A DNA stretch of 64,000 nucleotides, taken from sequence record PZ338877.1, one strand, 5' to 3'. The notes under the pieces were generated by a model, which saw only the letters and a program-made list of their open reading frames with translations, did not search any database and was not told where the DNA came from. The DNA is from a phage. Positions 4,187-56,839 of this stretch are shown piece after piece (within the stretch, counting starts at the first letter, position 1; each line of letters opens with the position of its first letter). The translations under genes were made by a program, and so were the position numbers.

Positions 4187-6421
4187 CTAAACACCACAAC
4201 CCTCGCAATAAGCATCTTGCAGTGCAGATTTACCTACACCAATGCGACTGTTAAGGTAGTACATGGTTTTCATACCTACTGAGTTGGCATAAATCATGTA
4301 CTTCAAAGCTTGAGCCAATGATACCTTCTTAGACTTTGCATAGTCAACATAGAAATCTGAAGAGATAGCTTGACCAGTGAACTTTTGAAAAATTGCATAA
4401 CAATCAATCAGGTCAAAGGTGTCAATATCCCAAGCAATTTCATAGACATACTTCAACTCTTCGTAATCTGGAACAATAAACAGTACGTTACCAGTTGCAG
4501 ACTTTTTAGTTAAAATAAAGTCACGAATTGGGTACAAGCCATTTGTCGTATTAGTTGCCAGTGAAGAACTCTCATTAGGCATGTAAGCTTCTAATACAGA
4601 GTTACGGATTCCACCATTTTCTTTAATACGTTGTGCTAAGTCATCCCAATCATAACGAAGTTTTGCATCATGCTTCTCATCAATCTTCCTGTTAGCTGTC
4701 TTTGGAGGAACCCAACCTTCAGGATATTTAGTGAACTGCATATACTCAGGCACACCACGTTCTTTAGCAAGTCTTAAAGAAGCTTCGTGTAAGTAGTAAG
4801 AGTGCATTTCAGCAAGCTCATGAAGCTTCGTCTTACCTGCTCTTGAAGAGTAGTTCACGTAGTTTTTCGCAAGGTAATGAGCCACATTTGTAAGGCCAAT
4901 CCCAACAGAACGACGCTTCTGGACATGGTTACGCATCGACGGATACGGATAATCCATAAGGTCAATAACGGAGTCAACCATTGCAAGAGCATAATAAGCA
5001 ACGTCAGCGTATTCATCTTCTGAAATTCTCCCTGCAACCAAACTAGCTAGGAAGCAAAGAGCTACCTCACCATCCTCTTTCACAGCGTCATCTCTGTAAA
5101 GGTCTGTCTCTTTCTCAAAGCCGTACACTGGCAACACAATTTCCATACAAAGATTTGACATCTTCAAAGGCTCTTTAAATGGTGTATGTGTGTTTGCATT
5201 ATTTGTGAAGAATGGATACACACGGCCTGTTGCATAACGCTGCTGGATAAACAGTTTAGCAATTTCACGAGCCTTTACTCGTCTGTGCTTAACACCTGAA
5301 TGCACTGCATGACCAACTGCCATAGCAAACTCATCAGCAGATGCTGTGTAGAACATGTCATAGAGCTTTGGTGCATCCTTGTAAGAGAATAGTAACCAGT
5401 CTGTATCATATTGAACACACTGCCAGAAATAATCATTTGTACCAAATGAGTAGTCCATCTCGTTAATACGTTTAGAAGGAACCGTTGTAGGATGCTTCAA
5501 ACGCAGTAAATCTTCAATCTGCGGGTCTAGAGCAGTGTAGAAGTTGTTAGCTGAACCACCACGACTCTTCTGTTTGTTTGCCTCTACAGATGAGCGTACA
5601 AGCTTGTAATAAGGCAGTTTACCCATGTGCTCAATAGTATTTTGACGGATACCATCACCAATAGTACGAGTCTCCATCAGCATCCCAATGCCAGCTTGCT
5701 TTGTAGTCATATCATAAGCAACCTTTGCAGCAATGCCTAGAGATTCAGCGGTATCATTTGCCTTAATCAAACAGCACGACGCATAACCTGATTTAGTAGC
5801 TCTTAAACCATTCAGATAAGGCGTAGGAGCGTTAATCTTCAGGTCAGATAGGTAAGTGTACAGCTTAATCACATCTTGCAGCCTACGGTGCTTTGGTTGC
5901 TTCTCAAAGGCTTTCATAGCCATACCCATAAACATAAATTGTGGTGACTCAAAAAGTCTTCCTGTTTTAATATCACGGATACCATACTTGTCTCTGAACT
6001 GTTTCAGGACTGCATAACCGTAAGAGATGTCTTTTGAGTGCACAATGTACCCTTGCAGATATTCAAGCTCTTCCTGAGAATAGTCCATCTTCTCCCAAAG
6101 TCCTGCTCTCTCCATATTTTTAACAAAGGTAACCAGCGTAGGAACCTTAGTAAAGCCTCCAAAGGCTTCTTTGTAGATAATCCCCAGAAGTAGCCGTCCA
6201 GCCATGTCTGAGTACTCTTGAGTTTGTTTATCAACACAAACATCAATCATGGCTTGGTGCATCTCTTTTGTAGTGCAACCCTCGTAGACACGTTTCATGG
6301 CTTCCATAGTGACTTCTGACCAGATAATTCCACGCTTATCTGCCCATGATGCCCACTTATTCAGTCTTTCTGGGTCAAAGTTTACTACTGTACCGTTTGA
6401 TTTTTTAATTGTCTTAATCAT
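4187..6421 (-). CDS. nrdA: ribonucleotide reductase class Ia alpha subunit
   Basis: 744 aa; C-terminal CEGCGV redox cysteine pair; typical RNR large-subunit size and context with nrdB. Confidence 0.88.
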   Translation of the reverse strand: MIKTIKKSNGTVVNFDPERLNKWASWADKRGIIWSEVTMEAMKRVYEGCTTKEMHQAMIDVCVDKQTQEYSDMAGRLLLGIIYKEAFGGFTKVPTLVTFVKNMERAGLWEKMDYSQEELEYLQGYIVHSKDISYGYAVLKQFRDKYGIRDIKTGRLFESPQFMFMGMAMKAFEKQPKHRRLQDVIKLYTYLSDLKINAPTPYLNGLRATKSGYASCCLIKANDTAESLGIAAKVAYDMTTKQAGIGMLMETRTIGDGIRQNTIEHMGKLPYYKLVRSSVEANKQKSRGGSANNFYTALDPQIEDLLRLKHPTTVPSKRINEMDYSFGTNDYFWQCVQYDTDWLLFSYKDAPKLYDMFYTASADEFAMAVGHAVHSGVKHRRVKAREIAKLFIQQRYATGRVYPFFTNNANTHTPFKEPLKMSNLCMEIVLPVYGFEKETDLYRDDAVKEDGEVALCFLASLVAGRISEDEYADVAYYALAMVDSVIDLMDYPYPSMRNHVQKRRSVGIGLTNVAHYLAKNYVNYSSRAGKTKLHELAEMHSYYLHEASLRLAKERGVPEYMQFTKYPEGWVPPKTANRKIDEKHDAKLRYDWDDLAQRIKENGGIRNSVLEAYMPNESSSLATNTTNGLYPIRDFILTKKSATGNVLFIVPDYEELKYVYEIAWDIDTFDLIDCYAIFQKFTGQAISSDFYVDYAKSKKVSLAQALKYMIYANSVGMKTMYYLNSRIGVGKSALQDAYCEGCGV

Positions 6422-49839: not shown

Positions 49840-49964
49840 TATGTTTTCTCCAAATAATTAACCATGTTTCCCCTTAAAAAAGACGGTACAGAGACCGTCA
49901 AGGAGAAACCACAATGTACGTCAGAGACATACTGTATAAGGCTTCTTATAAAGTATAACTCTGT

Positions 49965-50061: not shown

Positions 50062-50137
50062 TGGAGAATCCGAAGGGACTCGAACCCTTATAAACCTGTT
50101 TTGCAGACAGGCACATATCCATTTCTGTCACGGATTC
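50062..50137 (-). tRNA. tRNA-Cys (anticodon GCA)
   Basis: minus-strand cloverleaf: T-arm AAGGG-ACTCGAA-CCCTT, anticodon arm CCTGT-TTTGCAG-ACAGG, acceptor CGGATTC, CCA encoded. Confidence 0.8.
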
Positions 50138-50141
50138 AAAT

Positions 50142-50234
50142 TGGAGGAAGATACCAGACTTGAACTGGTACACCGATTTCTCAGCTACTGGCAGTTTAGC
50201 AAACTGCTCCCTTACCTTTTAGGGTTAATCTTCC
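50142..50234 (-). tRNA. tRNA-Ser (anticodon GCU), class II
   Basis: T-arm ACCAG-ACTTGAA-CTGGT, anticodon arm GCAGT-TTAGCAA-ACTGC, 21-nt variable arm, 7-bp acceptor, CCA encoded. Confidence 0.75.
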
Positions 50235-50235
50235 A

Positions 50236-51033
50236 TTATTTCTGTAATGCGTTCTTCATTTCTGGTGTTGCAATAGTGTCAATCACACCAGTTTTACAAG
50301 CATCATCAAACCAGTCTGGTAAGATACCTGCTAAGAACCCATTGATATTCGTTTTAAGGTACTCTGCAATAAGGGCAGCTTCTTCTTCAATCATCTGCAC
50401 AACTTCATCTGCATAAGCTGTAATCTTCGAGATACCTTCATTAATCTTACTAACAGCTTGATTAGCTAAATCAGAAATAGTATCAAGACCTTTATCAATA
50501 GCATCCTGTAAGTCGCTTAATACACCATTAACGCCATCTAGTGTGCTGTTAATTGTATCCATAGCTTTTTGACCATACTCTGTAGCAACACCCATAATAC
50601 CACTAAATGGTGTACAACCAACTTGCTCTCCTGCTGCACCCATAACATTGGAGTAGCCTTTTGCTACCTGCATACGTGAGGAAAACTCATCAATAGATTT
50701 TTGACCATAATCTGTCAATGTTTTAGTAGTTGCTGTAGTGCTTGTCAGACTCGTTGTAAAGCTATTAAGCAGAACTGTTGTAAGTCCAGCAGCAATGAGC
50801 TTATCCTTCATTGTAGGGTCTGTTACAGAGCTAATAGAGCTTACAAGTGATGTAGAGGCAGCTACGGTTCCACCTAGAACTGCTGCACCAGTAATAAGGG
50901 GATTAGAAAACCCTCTACCGGTTTTTAAGAGATTAAAAATCTCCTTACCTTGTTCTGTCATCTCTTTCATTAAGCACCTTTGAAATTGGTAGTCCAGTGG
51001 GATTTGAACCCTCTTCTCATGTTTTTCAGACAC
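50236..51033 (-). CDS. hypothetical Ser/Thr/Ala-rich protein embedded in tRNA array
   Basis: 265 aa ORF between tRNA-Ser and tRNA-Phe. Confidence 0.45.
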   Translation of the reverse strand: MSEKHEKRVQIPLDYQFQRCLMKEMTEQGKEIFNLLKTGRGFSNPLITGAAVLGGTVAASTSLVSSISSVTDPTMKDKLIAAGLTTVLLNSFTTSLTSTTATTKTLTDYGQKSIDEFSSRMQVAKGYSNVMGAAGEQVGCTPFSGIMGVATEYGQKAMDTINSTLDGVNGVLSDLQDAIDKGLDTISDLANQAVSKINEGISKITAYADEVVQMIEEEAALIAEYLKTNINGFLAGILPDWFDDACKTGVIDTIATPEMKNALQK

Positions 51034-51063
51034 GCGCTTTAACCATATAAGCTACTTGGACTA
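50987..51063 (-). tRNA. tRNA-Phe (anticodon GAA)
   Basis: T-arm GTGGG-ATTTGAA-CCCTC, anticodon arm CATGT-TTTTCAG-ACACG; ends approximate. Confidence 0.65.
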
Positions 51064-51068
51064 TAAAT

Positions 51069-51144
51069 TGGGGTGACCTACGGGATTTGAACCCGTATAG
51101 ACCATGTTCACAGCATGGGTCATTACCATTTATGATAAGGCCAC
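51069..51144 (-). tRNA. tRNA-His (anticodon GUG)
   Basis: T-arm ACGGG-ATTTGAA-CCCGT, anticodon arm CCATG-TTCACAG-CATGG, D-stem TCAT/ATGA, CCA encoded. Confidence 0.8.
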
Positions 51145-51175
51145 ATTTAAGGACTCTCGTAAGAATCCTTAGAAG

Positions 51176-51251
51176 TGGCAGCGGCATAAGGATTTGAACC
51201 TTAATAAGACAGCTTCAGAGACTGCTGCATTGCCAGTTATGCTATACCGCT
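51176..51251 (-). tRNA. tRNA-Gln (anticodon CUG)
   Basis: T-arm TAAGG-ATTTGAA-CCTTA, anticodon loop TTCAGAG (rc CTCTGAA), D-stem GCAT/ATGC, CCA encoded. Confidence 0.75.
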
Positions 51252-51256
51252 AAATT

Positions 51257-51335
51257 TGGTACTCCATATCGGATTCGAACCGATACATAACACAGATTTT
51301 AAGTCTGGCCTCTCTGCCAATTGGAGTAATGGAGC
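51257..51335 (-). tRNA. tRNA with Leu-type anticodon UAA, short variable region
   Basis: T-arm ATCGG-ATTCGAA-CCGAT, anticodon loop TTTTAAG (rc CTTAAAA), 7-bp acceptor; only 79 nt. Confidence 0.6.
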
Positions 51336-51337
51336 AT

Positions 51338-51413
51338 TGGCGGGGGATGTTGGAATTGAACCAACTTCTTCGATTTCAAAGACCGAGGTTTTAACCTTGT
51401 AAACTAATCCCCT
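51338..51413 (-). tRNA. tRNA-Gln (anticodon UUG)
   Basis: T-arm GTTGG-AATTGAA-CCAAC, anticodon arm TCGAT-TTCAAAG-ACCGA, D-stem GTTT/AAAC, CCA encoded. Confidence 0.75.
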
Positions 51414-51421
51414 TTAAATCT

Positions 51422-51979
51422 TTACTTTCTTAGTGGATGAATAAAGAATGCCAACATAACTCTTTCCCTTGAGAATGCTCTTTCTTCTGGGACAACACTT
51501 TTAAGTTTCCATCCAACATAAATTCTCCAGTAGAATTGTTTACCAAAGACTTTAATTGATGGGATAAAGGCGAATAATCCCCAAGCATTACTGTTCCACA
51601 TTAGGAGATAACCTGTCTGATTATCTTCAGGGTCAGAACTTACGTTGATATTACCTTTCCACTTAGTAACATCTTTTACATCTCTTCCTAACACATGGTA
51701 AGAGAAGTTATAAGCTTTGTTTCTCCAGAGCCATCCAACTCTCTGCAAATAGACACCCAGCTTACCAATCTTTCTAATCTTAGCCCATCTTTTAATGTGA
51801 CCTTCATCACCATCAATTGGGTTGTCATATGTCTCCATCCATCTGAATCCGAAAGGTAGATGTCCTTTCTTCTCACTATAGAATGGAACTACAAAAGGTG
51901 CTAAGATAACTGCTAAGGTTGCTGCCAATGGGTCTAACAAAGCTAGGAAAATCCATGAAGCATACTTCAAATATCTCAT
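51422..51979 (-). CDS. membrane protein embedded in tRNA array
   Basis: 185 aa; N-terminal hydrophobic helices (ASWIFLALLDPLAATLAVILAPFVVPF). Confidence 0.45.
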   Translation of the reverse strand: MRYLKYASWIFLALLDPLAATLAVILAPFVVPFYSEKKGHLPFGFRWMETYDNPIDGDEGHIKRWAKIRKIGKLGVYLQRVGWLWRNKAYNFSYHVLGRDVKDVTKWKGNINVSSDPEDNQTGYLLMWNSNAWGLFAFIPSIKVFGKQFYWRIYVGWKLKSVVPEERAFSRERVMLAFFIHPLRK

Positions 51980-51998
51980 CTAAATAGCCTCTTTAAAT

Positions 51999-52074
51999 TG
52001 GTGCAGGATAAGGGATTCGAACCCCTATTAACAGCTTCGTAGACTGCTGCTCTATCCATTTGAACTAATCCTGC
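51999..52074 (-). tRNA. tRNA-Arg (anticodon ACG)
   Basis: T-arm AAGGG-ATTCGAA-CCCCT, anticodon loop TTCGTAG (rc CTACGAA), acceptor GCAGGAT/ATCCTGC, CCA encoded. Confidence 0.8.
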
Positions 52075-52188
52075 TTACCTACAAGAACACCATACAGTTT
52101 TTCACAATCTTTGTTTTTACGTCTGTTTAGGTATGACGCTCTAAACTTTTTTGCTATTGACTTATCACTCATAGTGCTCTCCCAAAAT

Positions 52189-52266
52189 TGGTGTTCCAAG
52201 ACGGATTCGAACCGTCACTAGTACAAGGTTTGAGCTTGCATCCTCTGCCAATTGGGATATTGGAAC
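52189..52266 (-). tRNA. tRNA with Leu-type anticodon CAA, class I-like (78 nt)
   Basis: T-arm GACGG-ATTCGAA-CCGTC, anticodon arm ACAAG-GTTTGAG-CTTGC, perfect acceptor GTTCCAA/TTGGAAC, A73, CCA encoded. Confidence 0.65.
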
Positions 52267-52267
52267 A

Positions 52268-52342
52268 TGGTGCTCACTAAAGGACTTGAACCTTTTTCTT
52301 CATCTTGTAAGGGTGATGTTTTACCATATAAACTAAGCGAGT
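52268..52342 (-). tRNA. tRNA-Val (anticodon UAC)
   Basis: T-arm AAAGG-ACTTGAA-CCTTT, anticodon loop TTGTAAG (rc CTTACAA), D-stem GTTT/AAAC. Confidence 0.7.
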
Positions 52343-52437
52343 ATGAAAGAGGTCTGAAGTTGTGCCGCTCACTCAACTCCGTGGAATTTGTTACGGTCTT
52401 CAGTTGACACCAGCGGTCTTTCACTTGACCTCTGAAT
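52343..52437 (-). ncRNA. structured non-tRNA element inside tRNA array (candidate small RNA)
   Basis: 95 nt between tRNA-Val and tRNA-Thr; closing 7-bp helix AGAGGUC/GACCUCU plus internal inverted repeats; lacks T-loop consensus; contains a GGTCTTCAG motif copy. Confidence 0.3.
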
Positions 52438-52513
52438 TGGTGCTCCCACAAGGATTCGAACCCTGATAAGTTGCTTACAAGGCAACCGTAATAGCCAATT
52501 ATACGATAGGAGC
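52438..52513 (-). tRNA. tRNA-Thr (anticodon UGU)
   Basis: T-arm CAAGG-ATTCGAA-CCCTG, perfect anticodon stem GTTGC/GCAAC with loop TTACAAG. Confidence 0.8.
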
Positions 52514-52520
52514 ATTAATT

Positions 52521-52595
52521 TGGAGCATCCAGAGGGAATCGAACCCTCAACCTCAGTTTGGAAGACTGTAATTTTCCCGTTTAAACTATGGATGC
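52521..52595 (-). tRNA. tRNA-Gly (anticodon UCC)
   Basis: T-arm GAGGG-AATCGAA-CCCTC, anticodon loop TTGGAAG, perfect acceptor GCATCCA/TGGATGC. Confidence 0.8.
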
Positions 52596-52601
52596 ACTAA
52601 T

Positions 52602-52677
52602 TGGTGGAGTCACTGAGAATTGAACTCAGTTCCCAAGTTTGCAAAACTCGAATTTTAACCATATAAACTATGACCCC
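52602..52677 (-). tRNA. tRNA-Ala (anticodon UGC)
   Basis: T-arm CTGAG-AATTGAA-CTCAG, anticodon arm CAAGT-TTGCAAA-ACTCG. Confidence 0.7.
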
Positions 52678-52683
52678 AATGTT

Positions 52684-52759
52684 TGGTACAGGTGGAGGGA
52701 ATTGAACCCATCGTCTTACTGATTAAGAGTCAGCCGCATAACCATTTTGCTACACCTGC
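52684..52759 (-). tRNA. tRNA-Lys (anticodon CUU)
   Basis: anticodon stem CTGA/TCAG with loop TTAAGAG; acceptor ACAGGTG/CACCTGC; paralogous to tRNA at 53998-54073. Confidence 0.7.
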
Positions 52760-52766
52760 ATTGATT

Positions 52767-52844
52767 TGGTAGGAGACAAGGGATTCGAACCCTCAAACAC
52801 CAACTTCTAAGGATGGTAGGTTTACCAATTACCGTCAATCTCCC
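52767..52844 (-). tRNA. tRNA with Leu-type anticodon UAG, class I-like (78 nt)
   Basis: T-arm AAGGG-ATTCGAA-CCCTC, anticodon arm CCAAC-TTCTAAG-GATGG, A73, CCA encoded. Confidence 0.6.
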
Positions 52845-53097
52845 ATTAAATCTTTTTAGAGAACTTCTAAGAACCTAAGCAACAAGGTTCCACAACAAGC
52901 TGTAATAACCTTAGAAGCCCTCTAAAAAGACCTAAATATGTCTTTGCATAGTCTTGTTTAATCCGGTGACTAGAACCTTTGGAGAGCTTGATATTATCTC
53001 TTCTCCGTGACACCTACTAGGTGCTTTATCAGTGTGTACGACAATACACGAGGGATAAACCGAAAATGCGAGCAAGCATGACGGTGTAAATCTTATT

Positions 53098-53188
53098 AGG
53101 CGGTAAGTAAAGGAGTCGAACCCTCACCGTATCTCTACAGTGGCAACAGTTTTCAAGACTGTTTGGCTGCCATTAGCCGCTACCTACC
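53098..53188 (-). tRNA. tRNA-Ser (anticodon UGA), class II
   Basis: T-arm AAAGG-AGTCGAA-CCCTC, perfect anticodon stem ACAGT/ACTGT with loop TTTCAAG, long variable arm. Confidence 0.7.
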
Positions 53189-53201
53189 CCTAATAAGACT
53201 T

Positions 53202-53284
53202 TGGCATGGGACGGAGGAGTTGAACCCCTTTGAAACGGTTTTGGAGGCCGTTGCTCATGCCTTAGAGTCTTAACATCGTCCCAC
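53202..53284 (-). tRNA. atypical tRNA-Trp-like gene (anticodon core CCA, 9-nt anticodon loop)
   Basis: T-arm GGAGG-AGTTGAA-CCCCT, acceptor ATGGGAC/GTCCCAC, CCA encoded; anticodon stem AACGG/CCGTT encloses 9 nt (tRNA sense CCUCCAAAA); D region about 8 nt longer than canonical. Confidence 0.5.
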
Positions 53285-53426
53285 ACTATAATTCGAAGCT
53301 TACCGTATTTTCGCAACACTGTAAAGCCCCTTCTCAGATTATTTACATGTTCTGGAAAACATGAGATACAGACCACCTCCTTACACGGAGACCCGATAAG
53401 GTCGTCTAAGCAATCTGCTAACTATT

Positions 53427-53503
53427 TGGCACACCCTACAGGATTCGAACCTGTAACTAACGATTTAGAAGACCGTTGCTCTATCCAATTGAACTAAGGG
53501 TGC
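53427..53503 (-). tRNA. tRNA-Arg (anticodon UCU)
   Basis: T-arm ACAGG-ATTCGAA-CCTGT, anticodon arm ACGAT-TTAGAAG-ACCGT, D-stem GCTC/GAAC. Confidence 0.8.
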
Positions 53504-53839
53504 ATTAATCTTTAAAGACTCTCTTAGAAAGCCCTTAAAGATGCCCACCTTATTAATCATACCGTGGGCGAGTACGCCAAATTCTTTGATGAGGGATTGG
53601 AAGACCTCACTGGTGTTTAGCCTATCAAGCTACTGCCAGAAAAACATTGTCGTTTGCATTTATTTTAAATTTGCAAAATAGACGCTACGCAACGAAAACT
53701 ATTCAGAATATGTACAACAAATTTCCCCACATTGTGTTACGTCTAACGCTCATGTATTGGTGTTTGAATTATACATATTGTGAAGTATTTTAGTTACTAT
53801 AAAGTGGTCACATCTTAATGTCAACAACTTTATTGAAAT

Positions 53840-53915
53840 TGGTACTGGTAGGTGGAATCGAACCACCGATGTTCCCTTATCAGGGGAGTGTTATAACCTT
53901 CTTAACTATACCAGC
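53840..53915 (-). tRNA. tRNA-Ile (anticodon GAU)
   Basis: T-arm GGTGG-AATCGAA-CCACC, anticodon loop TTATCAG, acceptor ACTGGTA/TACCAGC. Confidence 0.8.
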
Positions 53916-53916
53916 T

Positions 53917-53993
53917 TGGAGGTTCAGATGGGAATCGAACCCACATTCATAGGGCTTATGAGACCCCTGCATTACCTTATCTGCGACTGAACC
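53917..53993 (-). tRNA. tRNA with CAU anticodon (Met/fMet; three G-C pairs in anticodon stem)
   Basis: T-arm ATGGG-AATCGAA-CCCAC, anticodon arm AGGGC-TTATGAG-ACCCC, perfect acceptor GGTTCAG/CTGAACC. Confidence 0.75.
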
Positions 53994-53997
53994 ATAT

Positions 53998-54073
53998 TGG
54001 TAGAAGTGGAGGGATTCGAACCCATCGCCTGTCAGATTAAAAGTCTGCCGCATCACCATTCTGCTACACTTCC
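53998..54073 (-). tRNA. tRNA-Lys (anticodon UUU)
   Basis: anticodon stem CAGA/TCTG with loop TTAAAAG; acceptor AGAAGTG/CACTTCC. Confidence 0.7.
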
Positions 54074-54275
54074 ATTAAATTACCTTTGCAGTAACCTACG
54101 CAGACCTTGCTAAAGGGTCTGTAGAGTCATTTCCTCTTAAGCTAATCTAGAATCATGCTAAGGAAATTCATCGGCACTCATGGGACGACATAATTAGCCA
54201 CATAAGCTACTGCAAAGATAATTACCAGACCGTTGTTTATCATCTTAAGTGCTACCATTACACCAACTCGACATC

Positions 54276-54321
54276 TGCCGAGTGAAGGAATCGAACCTTC
54301 GCCTTTTCTTTACCGGAGAAA
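54276..54321 (-). pseudogene. tRNA-like fragment (3' half only)
   Basis: intact T-arm GAAGG-AATCGAA-CCTTC and 3' acceptor strand plus a 5-7-5 hairpin, but no complementary 5' acceptor strand; anticodon loop has C at position 33. Confidence 0.35.
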
Positions 54322-54336
54322 TAGATTGTTTAAGTT

Positions 54337-54360
54337 TTGCTGTAAACGGTCTTCTGTAAA
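54337..54360. repeat. short repeat family copy (TTGCTGTAAACGGTCTTCTGTAAA)
   Basis: one of 4-5 copies of TTGCTG(Y)A(W)(W)(Y)GGTCTTCTG within tRNA array. Confidence 0.7.
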
Positions 54361-54423
54361 TTTGTTGAGCCAGACCAAGTTTTAAATTTTTCAAAATTAA
54401 ATTGGCTTGAAATTTTAAGTAAC

Positions 54424-54444
54424 TTGCTGTATTTGGTCTTCTGC
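54424..54444. repeat. short repeat family copy (TTGCTGTATTTGGTCTTCTGC)
   Basis: same motif family. Confidence 0.7.
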
Positions 54445-54530
54445 TCCTTTAAAGAATACTCGTAAGAACTCTTTAAGGGAGGGGCTAAATAGCCCTCTCA
54501 AAACATCATCTTGAAATACTTATTATAATT

Positions 54531-54608
54531 TGGCGGTTACGAAGGGATTTGAACCCTCATCATCTCCCGTGACAGGGGAGTATTTTAACCAGATTAAACT
54601 ACATAACC
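54531..54608 (-). tRNA. tRNA-Asp (anticodon GUC)
   Basis: T-arm AAGGG-ATTTGAA-CCCTC, perfect anticodon stem CTCCC/GGGAG with loop GTGACAG. Confidence 0.8.
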
Positions 54609-54614
54609 TTTATT

Positions 54615-54702
54615 TGGTGTGCCGTGTAGGAGTCGAACCTACCGAGTCTCAATGACAAGGGATTTACAGTCCCCACCGCTACCATCTACGGGATAACGAC
54701 AC
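54615..54702 (-). tRNA. tRNA-Tyr (anticodon GUA), class II
   Basis: T-arm GTAGG-AGTCGAA-CCTAC, anticodon arm AGGGA-TTTACAG-TCCCC, 15-nt variable arm. Confidence 0.75.
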
Positions 54703-54773
54703 ATTTTATTATTCTATTCAGGCTAAGGACTTGCACCTTACAAATCGGTGAGCAATCGCTTCTCTCCTAAATT

Positions 54774-54850
54774 TGGCGGTTAGTCAGGGATTCGAACCCT
54801 GTGCCATTCGCTTAACAGGCGACCGCACATACCTTATGTGCTTCCTAACC
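54774..54850 (-). tRNA. tRNA-Asn (anticodon GUU)
   Basis: T-arm CAGGG-ATTCGAA-CCCTG, anticodon loop TTAACAG, D-stem GCAC/GTGC. Confidence 0.7.
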
Positions 54851-54902
54851 TTAATACATTGCCAGACCGTGTTTTTTTCTTTTATCCGCAAAAAGTAGTT
54901 TG

Positions 54903-54927
54903 TTGCTGCATACGGTCTTCTGCAAAA
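54903..54927. repeat. short repeat family copy (TTGCTGCATACGGTCTTCTGCAAA)
   Basis: same motif family, immediately 3' of tRNA at 54929. Confidence 0.7.
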
Positions 54928-54928
54928 T

Positions 54929-55005
54929 TGGAGGCGGGTGCAGGAGTCGAACCTGCCGATACCATGCTAATGAGACATGTGAGACGCCCTTTCTCTATAC
55001 CCGCA
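54929..55005 (-). tRNA. tRNA with CAU anticodon (second copy; Met or Ile2-type)
   Basis: T-arm GCAGG-AGTCGAA-CCTGC, anticodon arm CATGC-TAATGAG-ACATG; 1:72 unpaired; U at position 37. Confidence 0.6.
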
Positions 55006-55069
55006 ATTCTTAATGACCAGACCAAATCTCTTCTTTGTCCGATTTACCTTCAGATGAATAAGATTAAGT

Positions 55070-55094
55070 TTGCTGTAATTGGTCTTCTGTCAAA
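55070..55094. repeat. short repeat family copy (TTGCTGTAATTGGTCTTCTGTCAAA)
   Basis: same motif family, immediately 3' of tRNA-Glu. Confidence 0.7.
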
Positions 55095-55096
55095 AC

Positions 55097-55174
55097 TGGC
55101 GTTCCAGAAGGGATTTGAACCCTCAAATATCCACTTTGAAAGAGTGGTGACTTTACCATTTTGTCTACTGGAAC
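55097..55174 (-). tRNA. tRNA-Glu (anticodon UUC)
   Basis: T-arm AAGGG-ATTTGAA-CCCTC, perfect anticodon stem CCACT/AGTGG with loop TTGAAAG, perfect acceptor. Confidence 0.8.
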
Positions 55175-55181
55175 ATTAATT

Positions 55182-55258
55182 TGGTCTCTGTTGGAGGACT
55201 TGAACCTCCGGCCTTACCGCCCCAAACGGAACGCTCTACCAAGCTGAGCTAAACAGAG
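55182..55258 (-). tRNA. tRNA-Pro (anticodon UGG)
   Basis: T-arm GGAGG-ACTTGAA-CCTCC, anticodon loop CCCCAAA, D-stem GCTC/GAGC, perfect acceptor. Confidence 0.8.
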
Positions 55259-55423
55259 ATAAACTTTTCAAACTCTATGTAACCACTTTAACATTATTTT
55301 TTAGTGGTTGTCAAGAACTTTTTTAAAATATTTTTCAGTATCTTAGAAAAGCTCTCATTTCGTTTCTATGTAGAACATATTAAAGGGTATCAAACACATT
55401 GTCAATACCCTTTTTAAAACTTT

Positions 55424-56839
55424 TTACCAGATGTAACGGTCAATCATTACTGCTTTGAGCATTACGCTGATTGGGTCAAACTTCTCACCGCCAAGAAGAG
55501 CTTTTAAAGTGGCTGGAGAGAACCCTGATACCATTGCTACACCATTATCCTTAACAGATACTTCGCAAGTACCATTACGGTTTGCTAAGTACCAGAATAC
55601 TAGTTGCGGCATTTCGTATCCAGCTTTTTTGTACTTACTCTGAATTGCTTCAAAGTTTGTACGACCATTTGCACCATCAACCTGATTAAACTCCATATCA
55701 GAGAAGATAATGAGCTTACTTGGCATATCTTTCTGAGTCAAGTTGTTTCTCTTACCTACCTCAAGGATACGGTCAAAAGCTGCTTGTAAGTTAGTTGAGC
55801 CATATTCAACATGACGCATTACCTGACGGTGACGGTTTCGTAAATCACCACTCAGTTCAATGAAATGAGGGTTTGTTGAATAGACCATTAACTCATCTTT
55901 AAAGCAACCTGTATTGCGTTCTGCTACATACAAGGCAAGTGATACACCAATATCAAGGGCAGTAATTGAGCCAAGATTCACCCAAGACATTGAGCTTGAA
56001 ACATCAGTCATACATAAGATGTTTTCACCTTCTGCCATCCAGTTTGGTAGTGCTTTCCACTGCTCATTAGCGACATCAGCATTACCATACTTGATAGATT
56101 TAATCACATCGTATGGGTAAACAGCACCAGCGTTAATCTTGGCCTCACCTTTTGAGAGGGACTCGATGTAAGCTTTGTAACGTTCCCCATCTTTACGGCT
56201 AAAGAGCTTTTGGTAACGTGCAGCAGCGAGTGAAGGAATCTTGCTGTAGTCAATCTTACCAAACTCATTAGCAGAGATTTTTTGCTCAACCGTATCAGAT
56301 AGTGCAGATAACAGTGTGCGATACTCCTTCTCACTTAAGTTTGCAAACTTACAGAAACGTTTTACAAACTGTTTATGGCGTGGTTTTACTCGTGGCAACC
56401 ACTTAGCTGCTAAACCTGCTGTTGCAGGGTCTAGTAATGCTGATTCTAAATGTTTGAAGGCATCTGTCTCAAAACGAGTACCTACGAAGATTTTGAAGTC
56501 ATCAAAACGACCAAGTTCTGCAATCTTATCCATAATGCGAAGAACCTGTGTAGGTTCTAAAACTTTATCTTCAATTGCTTGAAGTAAAACAGTTCGGAAA
56601 GCTTTACGCTCACCCATACCTTCTCGTACATCTCGCATATGCAGTAAAATACGAACTGCAACATCAACATCCTCACGCAAAGCTTTGTAGAACAGGTCTG
56701 GTAAGATTTCTACATTGCTACGGCTTGAGCCAGCGGCTTTGTAAAAATCTACCAGAGCAGACATTGATGAAGTATGGTTTACAGCACCATTTTCAGTTCG
56801 ACCTGCATGAAGGTGCGCATGTTTAAATAACTCGCTCAT
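55424..56839 (-). CDS. vWA-domain protein with N-terminal helical domain (Ro60/TROVE-like or DUF2828-like, putative)
   Basis: 471 aa; C-terminal von Willebrand A fold with MIDAS-like DVSSSMS and later LIIFSDMEFN; N-terminal about 270-aa helical region; first gene upstream of tRNA array. Confidence 0.55.
   Translation of the reverse strand: MSELFKHAHLHAGRTENGAVNHTSSMSALVDFYKAAGSSRSNVEILPDLFYKALREDVDVAVRILLHMRDVREGMGERKAFRTVLLQAIEDKVLEPTQVLRIMDKIAELGRFDDFKIFVGTRFETDAFKHLESALLDPATAGLAAKWLPRVKPRHKQFVKRFCKFANLSEKEYRTLLSALSDTVEQKISANEFGKIDYSKIPSLAAARYQKLFSRKDGERYKAYIESLSKGEAKINAGAVYPYDVIKSIKYGNADVANEQWKALPNWMAEGENILCMTDVSSSMSWVNLGSITALDIGVSLALYVAERNTGCFKDELMVYSTNPHFIELSGDLRNRHRQVMRHVEYGSTNLQAAFDRILEVGKRNNLTQKDMPSKLIIFSDMEFNQVDGANGRTNFEAIQSKYKKAGYEMPQLVFWYLANRNGTCEVSVKDNGVAMVSGFSPATLKALLGGEKFDPISVMLKAVMIDRYIW

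What the first reader, a model, noticed from the sequence alone, without database searches (positions are those of the whole stretch)
50062..55258. Array of 27 tRNA genes decoding all 20 amino acids, with CCA encoded
By manual cloverleaf parsing the array contains 27 tRNA genes in 5.2 kb, all on the minus strand and nearly all with the 3' CCA template-encoded. They cover Ala, Arg x2, Asn, Asp, Cys, Gln x2, Glu, Gly, His, Ile, three Leu-type anticodons, Lys x2, two CAU tRNAs, Phe, Pro, Ser x2, Thr, a Trp-like gene, Tyr and Val. A complete set suggests strong codon-usage or translational autonomy from the host. Two protein genes (50236-51033 and 51422-51979, the latter a membrane protein) are embedded in the array.
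Basis: seen in the sequence. Interest (0 to 1): 0.5.

Follow-up and report, generated by a model that had tools for sequence, protein, structure and literature searches.

The report
Phage tRNA operon hiding Y-like RNAs
This is the well-known tRNA gene cluster of a Felix-O1-type phage of E. coli/Salmonella (26 normal tRNAs plus one odd tryptophan-type tRNA), and its apparently empty gaps hold four unannotated small RNAs that look like the partners of the Ro60-like RNA-binding protein encoded next door.

Summary
Rfam supports 24 at its curated threshold. The 27th, Trp-like gene is missed by both finders. It is nevertheless conserved, and compensatory changes support all four of its arms. It is non-canonical: 8-bp acceptor stem, 4-bp T stem, extra linker, anticodon CCA, G73 and an encoded CCA end.

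The window is a Felixounavirus, 95-97% identical to phages in which the same 26 tRNAs are already annotated, so the array itself is known. The anticodon set favours codons this AT-rich phage uses more than E. coli does. Published work reports that Felixounaviruses carrying their own tRNA-Ser(UGA) grow on a host lacking that tRNA.

Less ordinary content lies in the gaps. Four small RNAs share a closing stem plus U-N-CAGCAA, and one carries a permuted tRNA-like module in the order seen in bacterial YrlA Y RNAs. The gene immediately upstream encodes a DUF2828 protein whose predicted fold matches Ro60. A model of the short RNA hit 38 times in 66 distant DUF2828 loci, always on the gene strand and beside the gene. 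A tmRNA-like tag template also sits in the array.

The parts
55182..55258 (-). tRNA-Pro (UGG), CCA encoded
   Evidence: ARAGORN; Rfam 57.7 bits
55097..55174 (-). tRNA-Glu (UUC), CCA encoded
   Evidence: 60.6 bits
55014..55092 (-). Y-like RNA 1 (short form): outer helix UGAC/GUCA, internal loop AGA/G, helix AGACCAA/UUGGUCU, then UUACAGCAA and a variable hairpin
   Evidence: fold; conserved in all Felixounavirus loci; model R1 47.9 bits, but it is a seed of that model; weak Rfam Dicty_Class_I_RNA hit, 19.7 bits
54929..55005 (-). tRNA with anticodon CAU no. 2; atypical: U1xC72 mismatch, U73, U37
   Evidence: ARAGORN; not found by Rfam even at E<=10
54859..54925 (-). Y-like RNA 2 (short form)
   Evidence: R1 46.3 bits as a seed
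54774..54850 (-). tRNA-Asn (GUU)
54615..54702 (-). tRNA-Tyr (GUA), long variable arm
   Evidence: ARAGORN; below the Rfam tRNA gathering score (tRNA-Sec model 29.6 bits); annotated tRNA-Tyr in relatives
54531..54608 (-). tRNA-Asp (GUC)
   Evidence: 65.2 bits
54368..54445 (-). Y-like RNA 3 (short form)
   Evidence: R1 47.5 bits as a seed
54222..54359 (-). Y-like RNA 4 (long form): the same closing stem and UUUACAGCAA, then V hairpin, T arm (GAAGG-UUCGAUU-CCUUC), closed acceptor-like hairpin (ACUCGGC-AGAU-GUCGAGU) and D arm (GUGU-AAUGGUA-GCAC). This is a permuted tRNA-like module in the V-T-AS-D order of YrlA
   Evidence: fold; 12 distinct homologues are 98.5% paired, with 3 compensatory pairs (11 cells) in the acceptor-like stem and 0/500 shuffles reaching the covariation score; Rfam tRNA model hits the V/T/3'-acceptor part at 22.6 bits; YrlA domain order from PMC4201824
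53998..54073 (-). tRNA-Lys (UUU)
53917..53993 (-). tRNA with anticodon CAU no. 1 (G1-C72 paired, U73); could be Met elongator or Ile2, undecided
53840..53915 (-). tRNA-Ile (GAU)
53796..53824 (-). sigma-70-like promoter (TTGACA-17-TATAGT, 11/12), internal to the array
   Evidence: The total number of promoter-like sites is not above the shuffled expectation; the argument rests on score, strand and intergenic position
53622..53657 (-). tmRNA-like tag template GCA AAC GAC AAU GUU UUU CUG GCA GUA GCU UGA UAG (ANDNVFLAVA, two stops), with no in-frame start codon; it lies in a 286-nt structured RNA region, 53504-53789
   Evidence: Rfam tmRNA 15.9 bits and tmRNA_permuted 20.3 bits, both below threshold; the frame is kept with synonymous GAC/GAU and UGA/UAA changes in relatives; no start codon; no tRNA-like domain found
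53427..53503 (-). tRNA-Arg (UCU), reads AGA
   Evidence: 62.8 bits
53202..53284 (-). non-canonical Trp-type tRNA: 8-bp acceptor stem, 9-nt linker, 3-bp D stem, anticodon arm ACGGC-CUCCAAA-ACCGU, 4-bp T stem, G73, CCA encoded
53099..53188 (-). tRNA-Ser (UGA), the only tRNA without a full encoded CCA
   Evidence: (31.1 bits)
52767..52844 (-). tRNA-Leu (UAG), short variable loop
52684..52759 (-). tRNA-Lys (CUU)
52602..52677 (-). tRNA-Ala (UGC)
52521..52595 (-). tRNA-Gly (UCC)
52438..52513 (-). tRNA-Thr (UGU)
52268..52342 (-). tRNA-Val (UAC)
52189..52266 (-). tRNA-Leu (CAA), short variable loop
51999..52074 (-). tRNA-Arg (ACG)
51422..51979 (-). embedded ORF, 185 aa, DUF7338 / PHROG 2143, hydrophobic N-terminus, function unknown
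   Evidence: homologues also sit in or near tRNA clusters of larger phage contigs
51338..51413 (-). tRNA-Gln (UUG)
51257..51335 (-). tRNA-Leu (UAA), short variable loop
51176..51251 (-). tRNA-Gln (CUG)
51069..51144 (-). tRNA-His (GUG)
50987..51062 (-). tRNA-Phe (GAA)
50236..50973 (-). embedded ORF, 245 aa from the ATG at 50973, DUF7217 / PHROG 2114, function unknown
50142..50234 (-). tRNA-Ser (GCU)
50062..50137 (-). tRNA-Cys (GCA)
55285..55405 (-). two sigma-70-like promoters (TTGACA-17-TAATAT at 55405-55377; TTGACA-18-TAAAGT with a TG extension at 55314-55285) between the Ro60-like gene and tRNA-Pro
49882..49899 (-). intrinsic-terminator-like hairpin followed by a T run, downstream of the last tRNA
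55424..56839 (-). Ro60-like protein gene, 471 aa: DUF2828 + DUF7788 (vWA-type, with DVSSSMS), PHROG 850 'RNA-binding protein'
   Evidence: Pfam; PHROGs; AlphaFold2 pLDDT 88.9; the top 11 Foldseek PDB hits are all Ro60/TROVE, E 3e-8 to 4e-6, TM 0.44-0.65 normalised to the query; Bas63 gp130 is described as Ro60-like and as a counter to the Ppl defence (PMC11482910)

Best explanation
This is the conserved tRNA operon of a Felixounavirus, a Felix-O1-type myovirus of E. coli and Salmonella.

**Transcription and processing (inferred).** At least two transcription units, driven by sigma-70-type promoters, produce polycistronic precursors. Host enzymes cut these into 26 canonical tRNAs and one non-canonical Trp-type tRNA. 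Because CCA is encoded in nearly all of them, as in E. coli genes, they can mature by the host's ordinary 3'-trimming route.

**The decoder set.** It has a U34 tRNA in every four-codon box, plus readers of AGA, UUA, UUG, AAG and CAG. It is therefore biased towards the A/U-ending and rare codons that this 39% G+C phage uses far more than its host. It covers all 20 amino acids. It can keep phage translation going when host tRNAs are limiting, degraded or absent. Function is shown experimentally only for tRNA-Ser(UGA) in related phages.

**The operon is not tRNA-only.** Four Y-like small RNAs are interleaved with the tRNAs: three short ones and one with a permuted tRNA-like module. They most likely assemble with the Ro60-like DUF2828 protein encoded immediately upstream into an RNP. 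This RNP would be analogous to Ro60-Y RNA particles. Work on phage Bas63 reports that its Ro60-like gp130, which I infer to be the orthologue of this gene, counters the Ppl defence system.

**What is shown and what is inferred.**
- Shown here: the genes, their structures and covariation, the Ro60-like predicted fold, and the strand-specific linkage of RNA and gene across distant phages.
- Inferred: transcription and processing, aminoacylation identities, physical binding of the RNAs to the protein, and orthology with Bas63 gp130.
For: **tRNAs and their known status**
- 26 ARAGORN tRNAs, 24 of them above the Rfam threshold.
- The identical array is annotated in 95-97% identical Felixounaviruses. 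Published genus-wide re-annotation reports 17-23 tRNAs per genome (PMC8300805).
- CCA is encoded in 25 of 26.
- Cognate codons are enriched relative to E. coli.
- Felixounaviruses infect Syn61-delta-3, and phages carrying a seryl-tRNA restore reading of TCA/TCG (PMC12269064).
- The Trp-type gene is supported by covariation in all four arms.

**Y-like RNAs**
- The motif CAGAAGACC...GGTCTGG occurs four times in the window, all in gaps of the array. The same four elements are present in nearly all Felixounavirus and Mooglevirus loci retrieved.
- The acceptor-like stem of the long form has three unrelated sequences that all pair.
- Model R1 finds nothing else in the 64 kb at E < 0.05.
- In 66 non-seed loci whose DUF2828 protein is only 29-47% identical, R1 finds 38 hits at E <= 0.01. 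All are on the gene strand, and nearly all lie within about 300 nt of the gene.
- In 38 control loci (391 kb, several of them tRNA-rich) only one locus is hit.
- Long forms in distant loci hit Rfam YrlA below threshold (39.2 bits, E 4e-5).

**Protein**
- The predicted fold matches Ro60 over the full length.
- The Bas63 study calls gp130 Ro60-like and speculates that Y RNAs hide among the tRNAs.
Against: - No expression, processing or aminoacylation data exist for this phage.
- The Bas63 tRNAs were mostly dispensable on four laboratory hosts.
- The E. coli codon table was recalled from memory, and the enrichment test is modest (p = 0.013).
- The closing-stem motif differs from the GNCGAAN0-1G/CGAA motif of known bacterial and phage Y RNAs.
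- The Rfam YrlA model does not hit the window's long form even at E <= 10.
- The protein has no sequence-level match to Ro60 in the PDB.
- Covariation measured on the short-form seed alignment is circular, because the seeds were chosen for having a perfect stem.
- The Trp-type gene has a 9-nt linker and an 8/4 stem arrangement. No standard finder accepts it, so it may not be charged.
Confidence: 0.85

Rival explanations
1. The main benefit of the tRNA set is defence evasion rather than codon matching. Phage copies would replace host tRNAs that are cleaved by anticodon nucleases or other tRNA-targeting defences, or that decay when the host shuts down. This overlaps with the main explanation rather than excluding it.
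For: - The set covers every amino-acid box rather than only rare codons, including tRNAs for codons not enriched in the phage (GAA, AAA, CAG, UUC).
- The Bas63 study cites both ideas and finds the tRNAs only conditionally useful.
- The neighbouring Ro60-like gene is itself reported as an anti-defence factor.
Against: - Anticodon loops were not compared with the host's here, so there is no evidence of nuclease-evading changes.
- The codon-enrichment signal and the Syn61-delta-3 result are explained by plain decoding.
Confidence: 0.35
2. The four stem-plus-UNCAGCAA elements are only processing or stability hairpins of the tRNA precursor, or remnants of tRNAs. On this view they have no relation to the Ro60-like protein.
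For: - They lie between tRNAs in one operon.
- The long form clearly derives from a tRNA.
- One control locus, L044, has two such elements inside a 19-tRNA array with no DUF2828 gene within the 10-kb stretch held.
- The array also contains other repeated hairpins with UACG tetraloops.
Against: - All 38 hits in distant loci are on the gene strand and abut the DUF2828 gene, whether or not tRNAs are near.
- tRNA-rich control loci lack them.
- The single-stranded UACAGCAA and the A-G...C-U-G stem base are kept at 29-47% protein identity. This is more than a processing hairpin needs.
- The L044 contig is 183 kb, so it may carry the gene outside the locus held.
Confidence: 0.15
3. The Trp-like gene is a decayed or repurposed tRNA-like RNA (a decoy, regulator or pseudogene) and not a working tRNA-Trp. 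In that case the phage relies on the host for Trp.
For: - It is rejected by default ARAGORN and by Rfam at threshold.
- It has a 9-nt linker between acceptor and D stems, a 3-bp D stem, a C31xA39 mismatch and a 4-bp T stem.
- UGG is not enriched in the phage.
Against: - It is strongly conserved, with compensatory changes in all four arms. This includes a homologue on a 121-kb contig of a different phage type.
- The 8+4 stack equals the canonical 7+5 length.
- From my knowledge of E. coli tRNA-Trp, the anticodon loop CUCCAAA, G73 and, in most relatives, A1-U72 match the TrpRS identity set.
- CCA is encoded.
Confidence: 0.35
4. The array is largely neutral cargo that persists by linkage and contributes little to fitness.
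For: - tRNAs were mostly non-essential in Bas63 on four hosts.
- tRNA number varies from 17 to 23 among annotated genus members.
- Insertions and deletions occur between tRNAs, for example the 71-nt segment 54703-54773 that is absent from C600M2.
Against: - Order and sequence are conserved across hundreds of isolates and into Mooglevirus.
- Compensatory changes preserve the structures.
- A functional requirement has been shown on Syn61-delta-3.
Confidence: 0.08

Closest known systems
tRNA clusters of Felix O1 and other Felixounavirus/Ounavirinae phages (and, more broadly, of T4, T5 and KVP40-type phages)
   Same: The gene order and anticodons are the same as annotated in phages C600M2, CL1 and pinkbiff at 95-97% identity. 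The cluster sits between the terminase region and a conserved 'RNA-binding protein' gene. Its U34-rich decoder set matches AT-rich codon usage.
   Different: Nothing material differs for the 26 tRNAs. The database records inspected do not annotate the Trp-type gene or the four Y-like RNAs. One record labels Tyr as 'tRNA-OTHER'.
Bacterial and phage Ro60 (Rsr)-Y RNA systems: YrlA/YrlB of Salmonella, Yrn1 of Deinococcus, mycobacteriophage YrlA, and Thermus phage phiLo Ro60 with Yrl1/Yrl2
   Same: - Small RNAs are encoded next to a ring-plus-vWA protein.
- The 5' and 3' ends pair into a stem that has an internal loop.
- One RNA carries a tRNA-like module in the order V, T, acceptor-like stem-loop, D, exactly as in YrlA.
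- Shorter partners without that module exist, like YrlB.
- Long forms in related loci score sub-threshold hits to Rfam YrlA.
   Different: - The protein belongs to DUF2828/DUF7788, not Pfam TROVE, and has no sequence-level hit to Ro60 structures.
- The conserved RNA motif is A-G-R...Y-C-U-G plus U-N-CAGCAA, not GNCGAAN0-1G/CGAA.
- The RNAs are embedded in a tRNA operon.
- There are four copies.
Dictyostelium Class I RNAs (Rfam RF01414)
   Same: - Both are RNAs of about 42-65 nt whose ends form a short stem beginning with a conserved G.
- An unpaired (C)CUUACAGCAA motif directly follows the 5' strand.
- The middle is variable, and the 3' end is ...C-UG.
- The Rfam model aligns full-length to the window's element 1 (19.7 bits) and to short forms in five distant phage loci (23-29 bits).
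   Different: - All scores are below the gathering score of 41.5.
[quoted passage not shown]
- Their known direct binder is an RRM protein.
- Homology versus convergence is untested.
tmRNA (SsrA), including permuted two-piece forms
   Same: The segment 53622-53657 matches the tag-template consensus: an A-rich leader, then GCA AAC GAC..., a hydrophobic ...LAVA end and tandem stops in a hairpin loop. It has no start codon.
   Different: No alanine-accepting tRNA-like domain was found. ARAGORN calls no tmRNA, and the Rfam scores are far below threshold.
Non-canonical tRNAs with altered stem lengths (tRNA-Sec 8/5; 'allo-tRNAs' 8/4 and 9/3). This comparison rests on my own knowledge.
   Same: The Trp-type gene has an 8-bp acceptor stem and a 4-bp T stem, and it gives a weak hit to the Rfam tRNA-Sec model.
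   Different: It has no long variable arm, its anticodon is CCA, it has G73, and it carries an extra linker before the D stem.

Membership tests
Canonical bacterial-type tRNA | Cloverleaf accepted by tRNA finders or a covariance model | tested here: met
   26 by ARAGORN and 24 at the Rfam gathering score. The Trp-type gene fails both at default settings.
Canonical bacterial-type tRNA | 7-bp acceptor stem, 5-bp T stem and a 2-nt linker to the D stem (asked of the Trp-type gene) | tested here: not met
   It has an 8-bp acceptor stem, a 4-bp T stem and a 9-nt linker, supported by covariation.
Canonical bacterial-type tRNA | Aminoacylation and use in translation | not testable with these tools
   The only evidence is literature on tRNA-Ser(UGA) of related Felixounaviruses.
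Class II tRNA-Leu | Long variable arm | tested here: not met
   The three Leu-anticodon tRNAs have variable loops of 4-7 nt. Two of them (UAA, CAA) keep a Leu-like D loop, AAUUGGCAGAG; Leu-UAG carries UAAUUGGUAAA. All three have A73.
Ro60 / TROVE protein | HEAT-repeat ring plus C-terminal vWA domain with a MIDAS motif | tested here: met
   The AlphaFold2 model (pLDDT 88.9) matches Ro60 structures over the full length, E 3e-8 and TM up to 0.65. The next hits match only the vWA domain. A DxSxS-type motif, DVSSSMS, is present.
Ro60 / TROVE protein | Sequence membership of Pfam TROVE | tested here: not met
   Pfam gives DUF2828 + DUF7788 only. There is no PDB sequence hit to Ro60.
Y RNA (YrlA type, Rfam RF02553) | Encoded next to the Ro60-type gene | tested here: met
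   The elements lie 0.3-1.2 kb downstream on the same strand in the window. In distant loci 38 of 38 model hits are on the gene strand, beside the gene.
Y RNA (YrlA type, Rfam RF02553) | tRNA-like module in the order V, T, acceptor-like stem-loop, D, enclosed by a 5'/3' stem | tested here: met
   Element 4, compared with the description in PMC4201824.
Y RNA (YrlA type, Rfam RF02553) | GNCGAAN0-1G / CGAA motif near the 5' end | tested here: not met
   The 5' strand reads ACAGAAGACC. It resembles the motif but does not match it.
Y RNA (YrlA type, Rfam RF02553) | Score at or above the Rfam gathering score (69 bits) | tested here: not met
   There is no hit in the window at E <= 10. Related loci reach 39.2 and 28.7 bits.
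Y RNA (YrlA type, Rfam RF02553) | Physical binding to the Ro60-type protein | not testable with these tools
   Needs RIP or EMSA.
Dictyostelium Class I RNA (RF01414) | Terminal stem plus the 11-nt motif CCUUACAGCAA next to the 5' strand | tested here: inconclusive
   Eight or nine of the 11 nt (UUACAGCAA) are present at the same position, with the same G...C-UG stem base. Scores are 19.7-28.9 bits against a gathering score of 41.5.
tmRNA | Tag reading frame without a start codon, ending in a hydrophobic Ala-rich tail and a stop codon | tested here: met
   ANDN(V/A)FLAVA followed by two stops. The frame is conserved with synonymous changes.
tmRNA | Alanine-accepting tRNA-like domain (acceptor stem with a G3-U70 pair, T arm, CCA) | tested here: not met
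   None was found by ARAGORN, by Rfam or by inspection.

The most novel reading that the evidence does not exclude
The gaps of this tRNA operon may encode members of a widespread, undescribed family of phage small RNAs. Their signature is a terminal stem A-G-R...Y-C-U-G followed by U-N-CAGCAA. They come in short forms and in long forms that carry a tRNA-like module. On this reading they are the cognate 'Y RNAs' of the DUF2828 branch of Ro60-like proteins.

The same architecture and motif define the Class I RNAs of Dictyostelium, whose function has stayed unknown since they were described in 2004. Those RNAs could therefore be the eukaryotic counterpart, that is, partners of a DUF2828-type protein. 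[quoted passage not shown]
Probability: 0.25. Interest if true: 0.8.

Novelty: new member of a known kind. Interest (0 to 1): 0.5.

Why it matters
It is the annotated tRNA cluster of a well-sampled phage genus. Its biological point, decoding autonomy, already has experimental backing from recoded-host studies.

**What adds value is the unannotated content.**
- The 2024 Bas63 study guessed that Y RNAs hide among the 'tRNAs' next to the Ro60-like gp130, which counters the Ppl defence. It did not identify them. This analysis gives coordinates, a consensus and a covariance model for four candidates, so the hypothesis can be tested directly by RIP, EMSA and motif mutants.
- The RNA-gene linkage extends over very distant phages. 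That would define the RNA ligand of the whole DUF2828 family, which also has eukaryotic members according to its Pfam description (recalled from memory).
- A conserved 8/4 Trp-type tRNA and three tRNA-Leu species without a variable arm are natural test cases for synthetase identity rules.
- Automated finders miss the Trp-type gene, so tRNA counts from automated finders may under-report such genes.

Tried and rejected
**Searches that found nothing**
- Rfam at gathering score, on the window and on 20 related loci, returned only tRNA and one true tmRNA in L159. No known family covers the Y-like elements.
- A PDB sequence search with the protein profile gave no Ro60 hit. Only fold comparison shows the relationship.

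**Ideas tested and dropped**
- A connecting, 'anticodon-stem-like' helix in element 4 (CUUAA/UUAAG or AUCU/AGAU) is not preserved in L020 or L081, so I left it out of the tested structure.
- A hairpin-ribozyme or archaeal bulge-helix-bulge reading of the CAGAAGACC/GGUCUGG stem does not fit the loop geometry.
- DNA-level explanations for the elements (inverted-repeat mobile element, terminator) are rejected. The hits are strand-specific (38 of 38), and the stems contain G-U pairs that would be C-A mismatches on the other strand.
- Covariation on the short-form seed alignment A3 looks strong. I discount it because the seeds were selected for a perfect stem. The non-circular evidence is the model search of non-seed and control loci.
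- I looked for a tRNA-like domain that would make the tag template a real tmRNA and found none.

**Resources that were unavailable**
- Checking whether Dictyostelium has a DUF2828 protein failed: the AlphaFold database library was not available, the 2011 pull-down paper is not held, and a search for DDB_G0281243 returned only the paper that mentions it.
- The supplement of Chen et al. 2014 that lists phage YrlA RNAs is not held.

**Not attempted or not resolved**
- The identities of the two CAU tRNAs (Met, initiator-like or Ile2) could not be decided from sequence.
- Orthology with Bas63 gp130 was not checked directly. It is inferred from genus membership, from the gene's position upstream of the tRNAs and from near-universal conservation of the gene.

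Full report

ARAGORN on the whole 64-kb window returns 26 tRNA genes and nothing else.

Rfam's tRNA model supports 24 at its gathering score. It misses tRNA-Tyr and the CAU tRNA at 54929-55005, and the latter is not found even at E <= 10. CCA is template-encoded in 25 of 26. Ser-UGA ends GCC followed by U.

The two embedded ORFs exist. The first should start at the ATG at 50973, giving 245 aa as annotated in phage C600M2.

**2. The 27th, 'Trp-like' gene**

Default finders do not call it. ARAGORN relaxed to -ps80 reports 'tRNA-???' at 53289-53202, and the Rfam tRNA-Sec model gives 23 bits.

The sequence folds as follows:
- an 8-bp acceptor stem (GUGGGACG/CGUCCCAU);
- a 9-nt linker;
- a 3-bp D stem with a GG-containing loop;
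- an anticodon arm ACGGC-CUCCAAA-ACCGU;
- a 5-nt variable loop;
- a 4-bp T stem;
- G73 and CCA.

It is present in every Felixounavirus and Mooglevirus locus I retrieved, and on a 121-kb contig of another phage type, L025. On 10 distinct sequences the cloverleaf is 95.5% paired, against 35-54% for slid controls. Seven pairs carry changes on both sides, spread over all four helices, and 0 of 500 shuffles reach that value.

From my own knowledge of E. coli tRNA-Trp, the anticodon loop, G73 and (in most relatives) an A-U first pair match the TrpRS identity set. The 8+4 stack has the canonical 12-bp length. I therefore regard it as a real, conserved, non-canonical Trp-type tRNA. Whether it is charged is unknown.

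**3. What the window is**

The array is 95-97% identical to more than 200 Felixounavirus genomes. In phage C600M2 the same 26 tRNAs are annotated in the same order, and pinkbiff annotates all but one of the two CAU tRNAs. A genus-wide comparison reports 17-23 annotated tRNAs per genome, located at the end of the genomes as deposited. The array itself is therefore already known.

**4. How the tRNA part most likely works**

The three best sigma-70-like sites on the correct strand sit in intergenic positions. Two lie upstream of tRNA-Pro (55405-55377 and 55314-55285). One is internal (53824-53796, 11 of 12 matches). A terminator-like hairpin follows the last tRNA, at 49899-49882. The total count of promoter-like sites is no higher than in shuffled sequence, so this reading rests on score and position only.

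The set has a U34 tRNA in all seven four-codon boxes that are read this way, ACG for CGN, and both members of the Leu UUR, Lys and Gln pairs.

I compared the codon usage of 62 long ORFs of the window with an E. coli table recalled from memory. The Watson-Crick cognate codons of the phage tRNAs are enriched: mean log2 +0.37 against -0.66, p = 0.013. The leaders are AGA (6.4x), CUA, CCA, ACA, UCA, UUA, GCA and GUA.

Published work states that eight of the phages able to infect Syn61-delta-3 are Felixounaviruses. That host lacks serT and serU. The same work states that natural phages carrying tRNA-Ser(UGA) restore reading of TCA and TCG. One such phage, REP10, appears among the close relatives of this window.

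Set against this, the tRNAs of the Felixounavirus Bas63 were mostly non-essential on four laboratory hosts.

**5. The three Leu-anticodon tRNAs**

They are 78-79 nt long, with variable loops of only 4-7 nt, so they lack the long arm of class II tRNA-Leu. Two of them (UAA and CAA) keep a D loop like that of E. coli tRNA-Leu (AAUUGGCAGAG), and Leu-UAG has the related UAAUUGGUAAA. All three keep A73. From established work on E. coli LeuRS identity, which I cite from memory, the long arm is not required for charging. Leu identity is therefore plausible but untested.

**6. The gaps are not empty: four Y-like RNAs**

The motif CAGAAGACC...GGTCTGG occurs four times in the window, all on the minus strand in gaps of the array. 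Each element folds as follows:
- an outer 3-4-bp helix, which differs in sequence among the four copies but pairs in each;
- an AGA/G internal loop;
- a helix AGACC-NNN/NNN-GGUCU;
- the single-stranded motif U-(A/G/U)-CAGCAA.

Three elements are short. The fourth (54222-54359) contains, in order, a V hairpin, a perfect T arm, a closed acceptor-like hairpin, the dinucleotide UG and a D arm. This is a circularly permuted tRNA-like module.

That is the V-T-AS-D order described for bacterial YrlA Y RNAs. Across 12 distinct homologues the T and D arms are invariant. The acceptor-like stem appears in three unrelated, fully paired versions. Overall pairing is 98.5%, with 3 pairs and 11 cells changed on both sides, and 0 of 500 shuffles reach the covariation score.

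**7. The neighbouring gene**

The ORF immediately upstream of the array (55424-56839, 471 aa) is DUF2828 + DUF7788 in Pfam and 'RNA-binding protein' in PHROGs. A profile search finds no Ro60 sequence in the PDB.

An AlphaFold2 model (pLDDT 88.9, pTM 0.89) matches Ro60 over its full length. The top 11 Foldseek hits are all Ro60/TROVE: Xenopus Ro60, Deinococcus Rsr and Thermus phage phiLo Ro60. Their E-values run from 3e-8 to 4e-6, with TM up to 0.65. The next hits cover only the vWA domain.

The PhageMaP preprint on Bas63 reports three things:
- gp130, directly upstream of the tRNA stretch, is structurally Ro60-like;
- gp130 counters the Ppl defence;

They did not identify them. The four elements above, which lie in unannotated gaps rather than among the tRNAs, are the obvious candidates. 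Orthology with gp130 is inferred from genus, position and near-universal conservation of the gene.

**8. Does the RNA travel with the gene?**

I retrieved 80 loci with a profile of the protein. Seventy-five of them, from environmental phages, encode proteins 39-47% identical to the window's. A few more, at 29-40% identity, came from an earlier single-sequence scan.

A pattern scan showed intergenic elements next to the gene with the consensus AA[A-G-R-NNNN]-U-N-CAGCAA-variable-[NNNN-Y-C-U]-G. Some are short (44-65 nt). Some are long and carry T, AS and D modules.

I built covariance model R1 from 23 short forms. The results were:
- **In the window, with filters off.** R1 finds only the three seed elements (46-48 bits) and a partial hit on element 4. 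The next best hit has E = 0.09.
- **In 66 non-seed loci (476 kb, both strands).** R1 finds 38 hits at E <= 0.01. All 38 are on the gene strand, and nearly all lie within about 300 nt of the gene's ends.
- **In 38 control loci (391 kb).** These were chosen through a different protein, and several are tRNA-rich. Only one locus is hit. Its 10-kb stretch lacks the gene, but its contig is 183 kb.

This is non-circular evidence of linkage. By contrast, the covariation measured on the seeds themselves is circular, and I discount it.

Rfam at E-value threshold gives sub-threshold YrlA hits to long forms (39.2 bits, E 4e-5; and 28.7 bits). It also gives full-length Dicty_Class_I_RNA hits to short forms in five loci, at 23-29 bits against a gathering score of 41.5.

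**9. Comparison with known Y RNAs**

The architecture, the genomic linkage and the tRNA-like module are those of Ro60-Y RNA systems. Such systems are already known in mycobacteriophages, CcrColossus, Bacillus phage G and Thermus phage phiLo.

The differences are:
- the protein family (DUF2828, not Pfam TROVE);
- the RNA motif (not GNCGAAN0-1G/CGAA);
- the failure of the YrlA model on the window.

I therefore say it works like a Y RNA system. I file it as a new member or variant, not as YrlA proper.

**10. The Dictyostelium resemblance**

Class I RNAs are 42-65 nt long. They have a short terminal stem with an invariant 5' G, an unpaired 11-nt motif next to the 5' strand and a variable remainder. 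They are reported to be unique to dictyostelids and to have unknown function. The Rfam consensus (GaUcuC-CUUACAGCAA...GagAuC-UG) coincides with the phage consensus in stem base, motif and 3' end.

The RNA DdR-21 pulled down GuaB, NdkC, the RRM protein CIBP and an uncharacterised protein, DDB_G0281243. I could not test whether that protein, or any Dictyostelium protein, is DUF2828-like. This remains a lead.

**11. A tmRNA-like tag template**

Downstream of the internal promoter, 53657-53622 reads GCA AAC GAC AAU GUU UUU CUG GCA GUA GCU UGA UAG (ANDNVFLAVA, two stops). It is preceded by an A-rich leader, and the stops lie in a hairpin loop. This resembles SsrA tags, and the segment aligns to the tag region of Rfam's permuted-tmRNA model at 20.3 bits, below threshold.

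There is no in-frame start codon. Relatives keep the frame through GAC/GAU, UGA/UAA and one Val/Ala change. No tRNA-like domain was found, so its function is unexplained.

**12. Verdict**

The finding is confirmed and its interpretation supported. As stated, however, it describes a known and annotated feature of a well-sampled phage genus.

The added value lies in the unannotated genes inside the array:
- a conserved non-canonical Trp-type tRNA;
- four Y-like RNAs that match a published but unresolved hypothesis about the adjacent Ro60-like anti-defence protein;
- a tag-template-like RNA.

I score overall interest at 0.5. That combines low interest for the array itself with substantially higher interest for the RNA-protein module, if experiments confirm binding.

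Noticed in passing
L091/L093/L094 about 5670-5910; L173 4384-5110; L158 2747-2969; L118 2705-2927; L106 149-438; L167 2324-2941 (many others in L101-L175): Small RNAs with a terminal stem (A-G-R...Y-C-U-G) followed by U-N-CAGCAA sit beside DUF2828/Ro60-like genes in very diverse environmental phages. They often occur in tandem. Some carry a permuted tRNA-like module. No Rfam family reaches threshold on them.
   Followed up: yes
window 55014-55092 (-), and short forms in L108, L133, L143, L166, L173: These RNAs share stem base, motif (UUACAGCAA) and 3' end (C-UG) with the Dictyostelium Class I RNA consensus. They repeatedly give full-length but sub-threshold hits to RF01414. DDB_G0281243, a Class I RNA pull-down protein of unknown function, would be worth testing for a DUF2828-type fold.
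   Followed up: partly
window 53504-53789 (-), tag at 53622-53657: A tmRNA-like tag template (ANDNVFLAVA followed by two stops, no start codon, stops in a hairpin loop) lies downstream of the strongest promoter-like site. It is conserved with synonymous changes in relatives. No tRNA-like domain was found. A degenerate copy of its hairpin (GCAGUAGCUUAUGUGGCUAA) lies at about 54186-54205.
   Followed up: partly
window 51257-51335, 52189-52266, 52767-52844 (-): All three Leu-anticodon tRNAs lack the long variable arm (loops of 4-7 nt). They keep A73, and two of them keep a Leu-type D loop. L025 also has a 77-nt tRNA-Leu(UAG).
   Followed up: partly
window 54929-55005 (-): The second CAU tRNA has an unpaired 1:72 position (U opposite C), U73 and U37, and it is invisible to the Rfam tRNA model. 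An unpaired 1:72 position is a hallmark of bacterial initiator tRNA, but the three G-C pairs typical of an initiator's anticodon stem are absent. Its identity is undecided.
   Followed up: partly
window 53099-53188 (-): tRNA-Ser(UGA) has the anticodon of the serT tRNA deleted in Syn61-delta-3, which published work implicates in Felixounavirus growth on that host. It is the only tRNA here without a complete encoded CCA (it ends GCC, then U), and it has the lowest Rfam score of the accepted tRNAs (31.1 bits).
   Followed up: no
window 54096-54124 (-) and 52345-52437 (-): A mini-hairpin, CUACAGACC-CUUUAGCAA-GGUCUGCGUAG, looks like a collapsed copy of the Y-like stem and motif. A longer stem-closed segment (AGAGGUC...GACCUCU) contains CUGAAGACCGUAACAAAUU, possibly a decayed fifth element.
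   Followed up: no
window about 51151-51168, 54453-54472, 53511-53540 and 52850-52930 (-): Hairpins built on CUUAAAG/CUUUAAG-type arms recur between tRNAs. Two of them cap a UACG tetraloop, for example GGAUUCU-UACG-AGAGUCC. They may be processing or stability elements.
   Followed up: no
window 54703-54773 (-): A 71-nt segment between tRNA-Asn and tRNA-Tyr is absent from phage C600M2, where the two tRNAs are 9 nt apart. It contains a T-loop-like GGUGCAAGUCC and may be a tRNA remnant.
   Followed up: no
L159 5619-6092; L101-L175 generally: DUF2828/Ro60-like genes in distant phages are usually flanked by same-strand tRNA genes. In L159 the gene is flanked by a bona fide tmRNA (70.9 bits). The protein, its small RNAs and translation-related RNA genes seem to form a recurring module.
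   Followed up: partly
window 51422-51979 (-); L026-L050: Homologues of the embedded DUF7338 protein recur on contigs of 140-180 kb and of about 120 kb (sizes typical of T4-like and T5-like phages). Several sit inside or beside tRNA clusters (for example 18-19 tRNAs in each of L039-L041, L043 and L044), which hints at a tRNA-related role.
   Followed up: no
L044 6456-6526 and 6739-6814: Two strong hits of model R1 (39.6 bits each) lie inside a 19-tRNA array of a 183-kb contig. No DUF2828 gene lies within the 10-kb stretch held. Whether the gene lies elsewhere on that contig is unknown.
   Followed up: partly
window 52065-52172 (-): A 35-aa ORF (MSDKSIAKKF...), annotated as hypothetical in C600M2, overlaps the 5' end of tRNA-Arg(ACG) by about 10 nt. 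Whether it is coding is doubtful.
   Followed up: no
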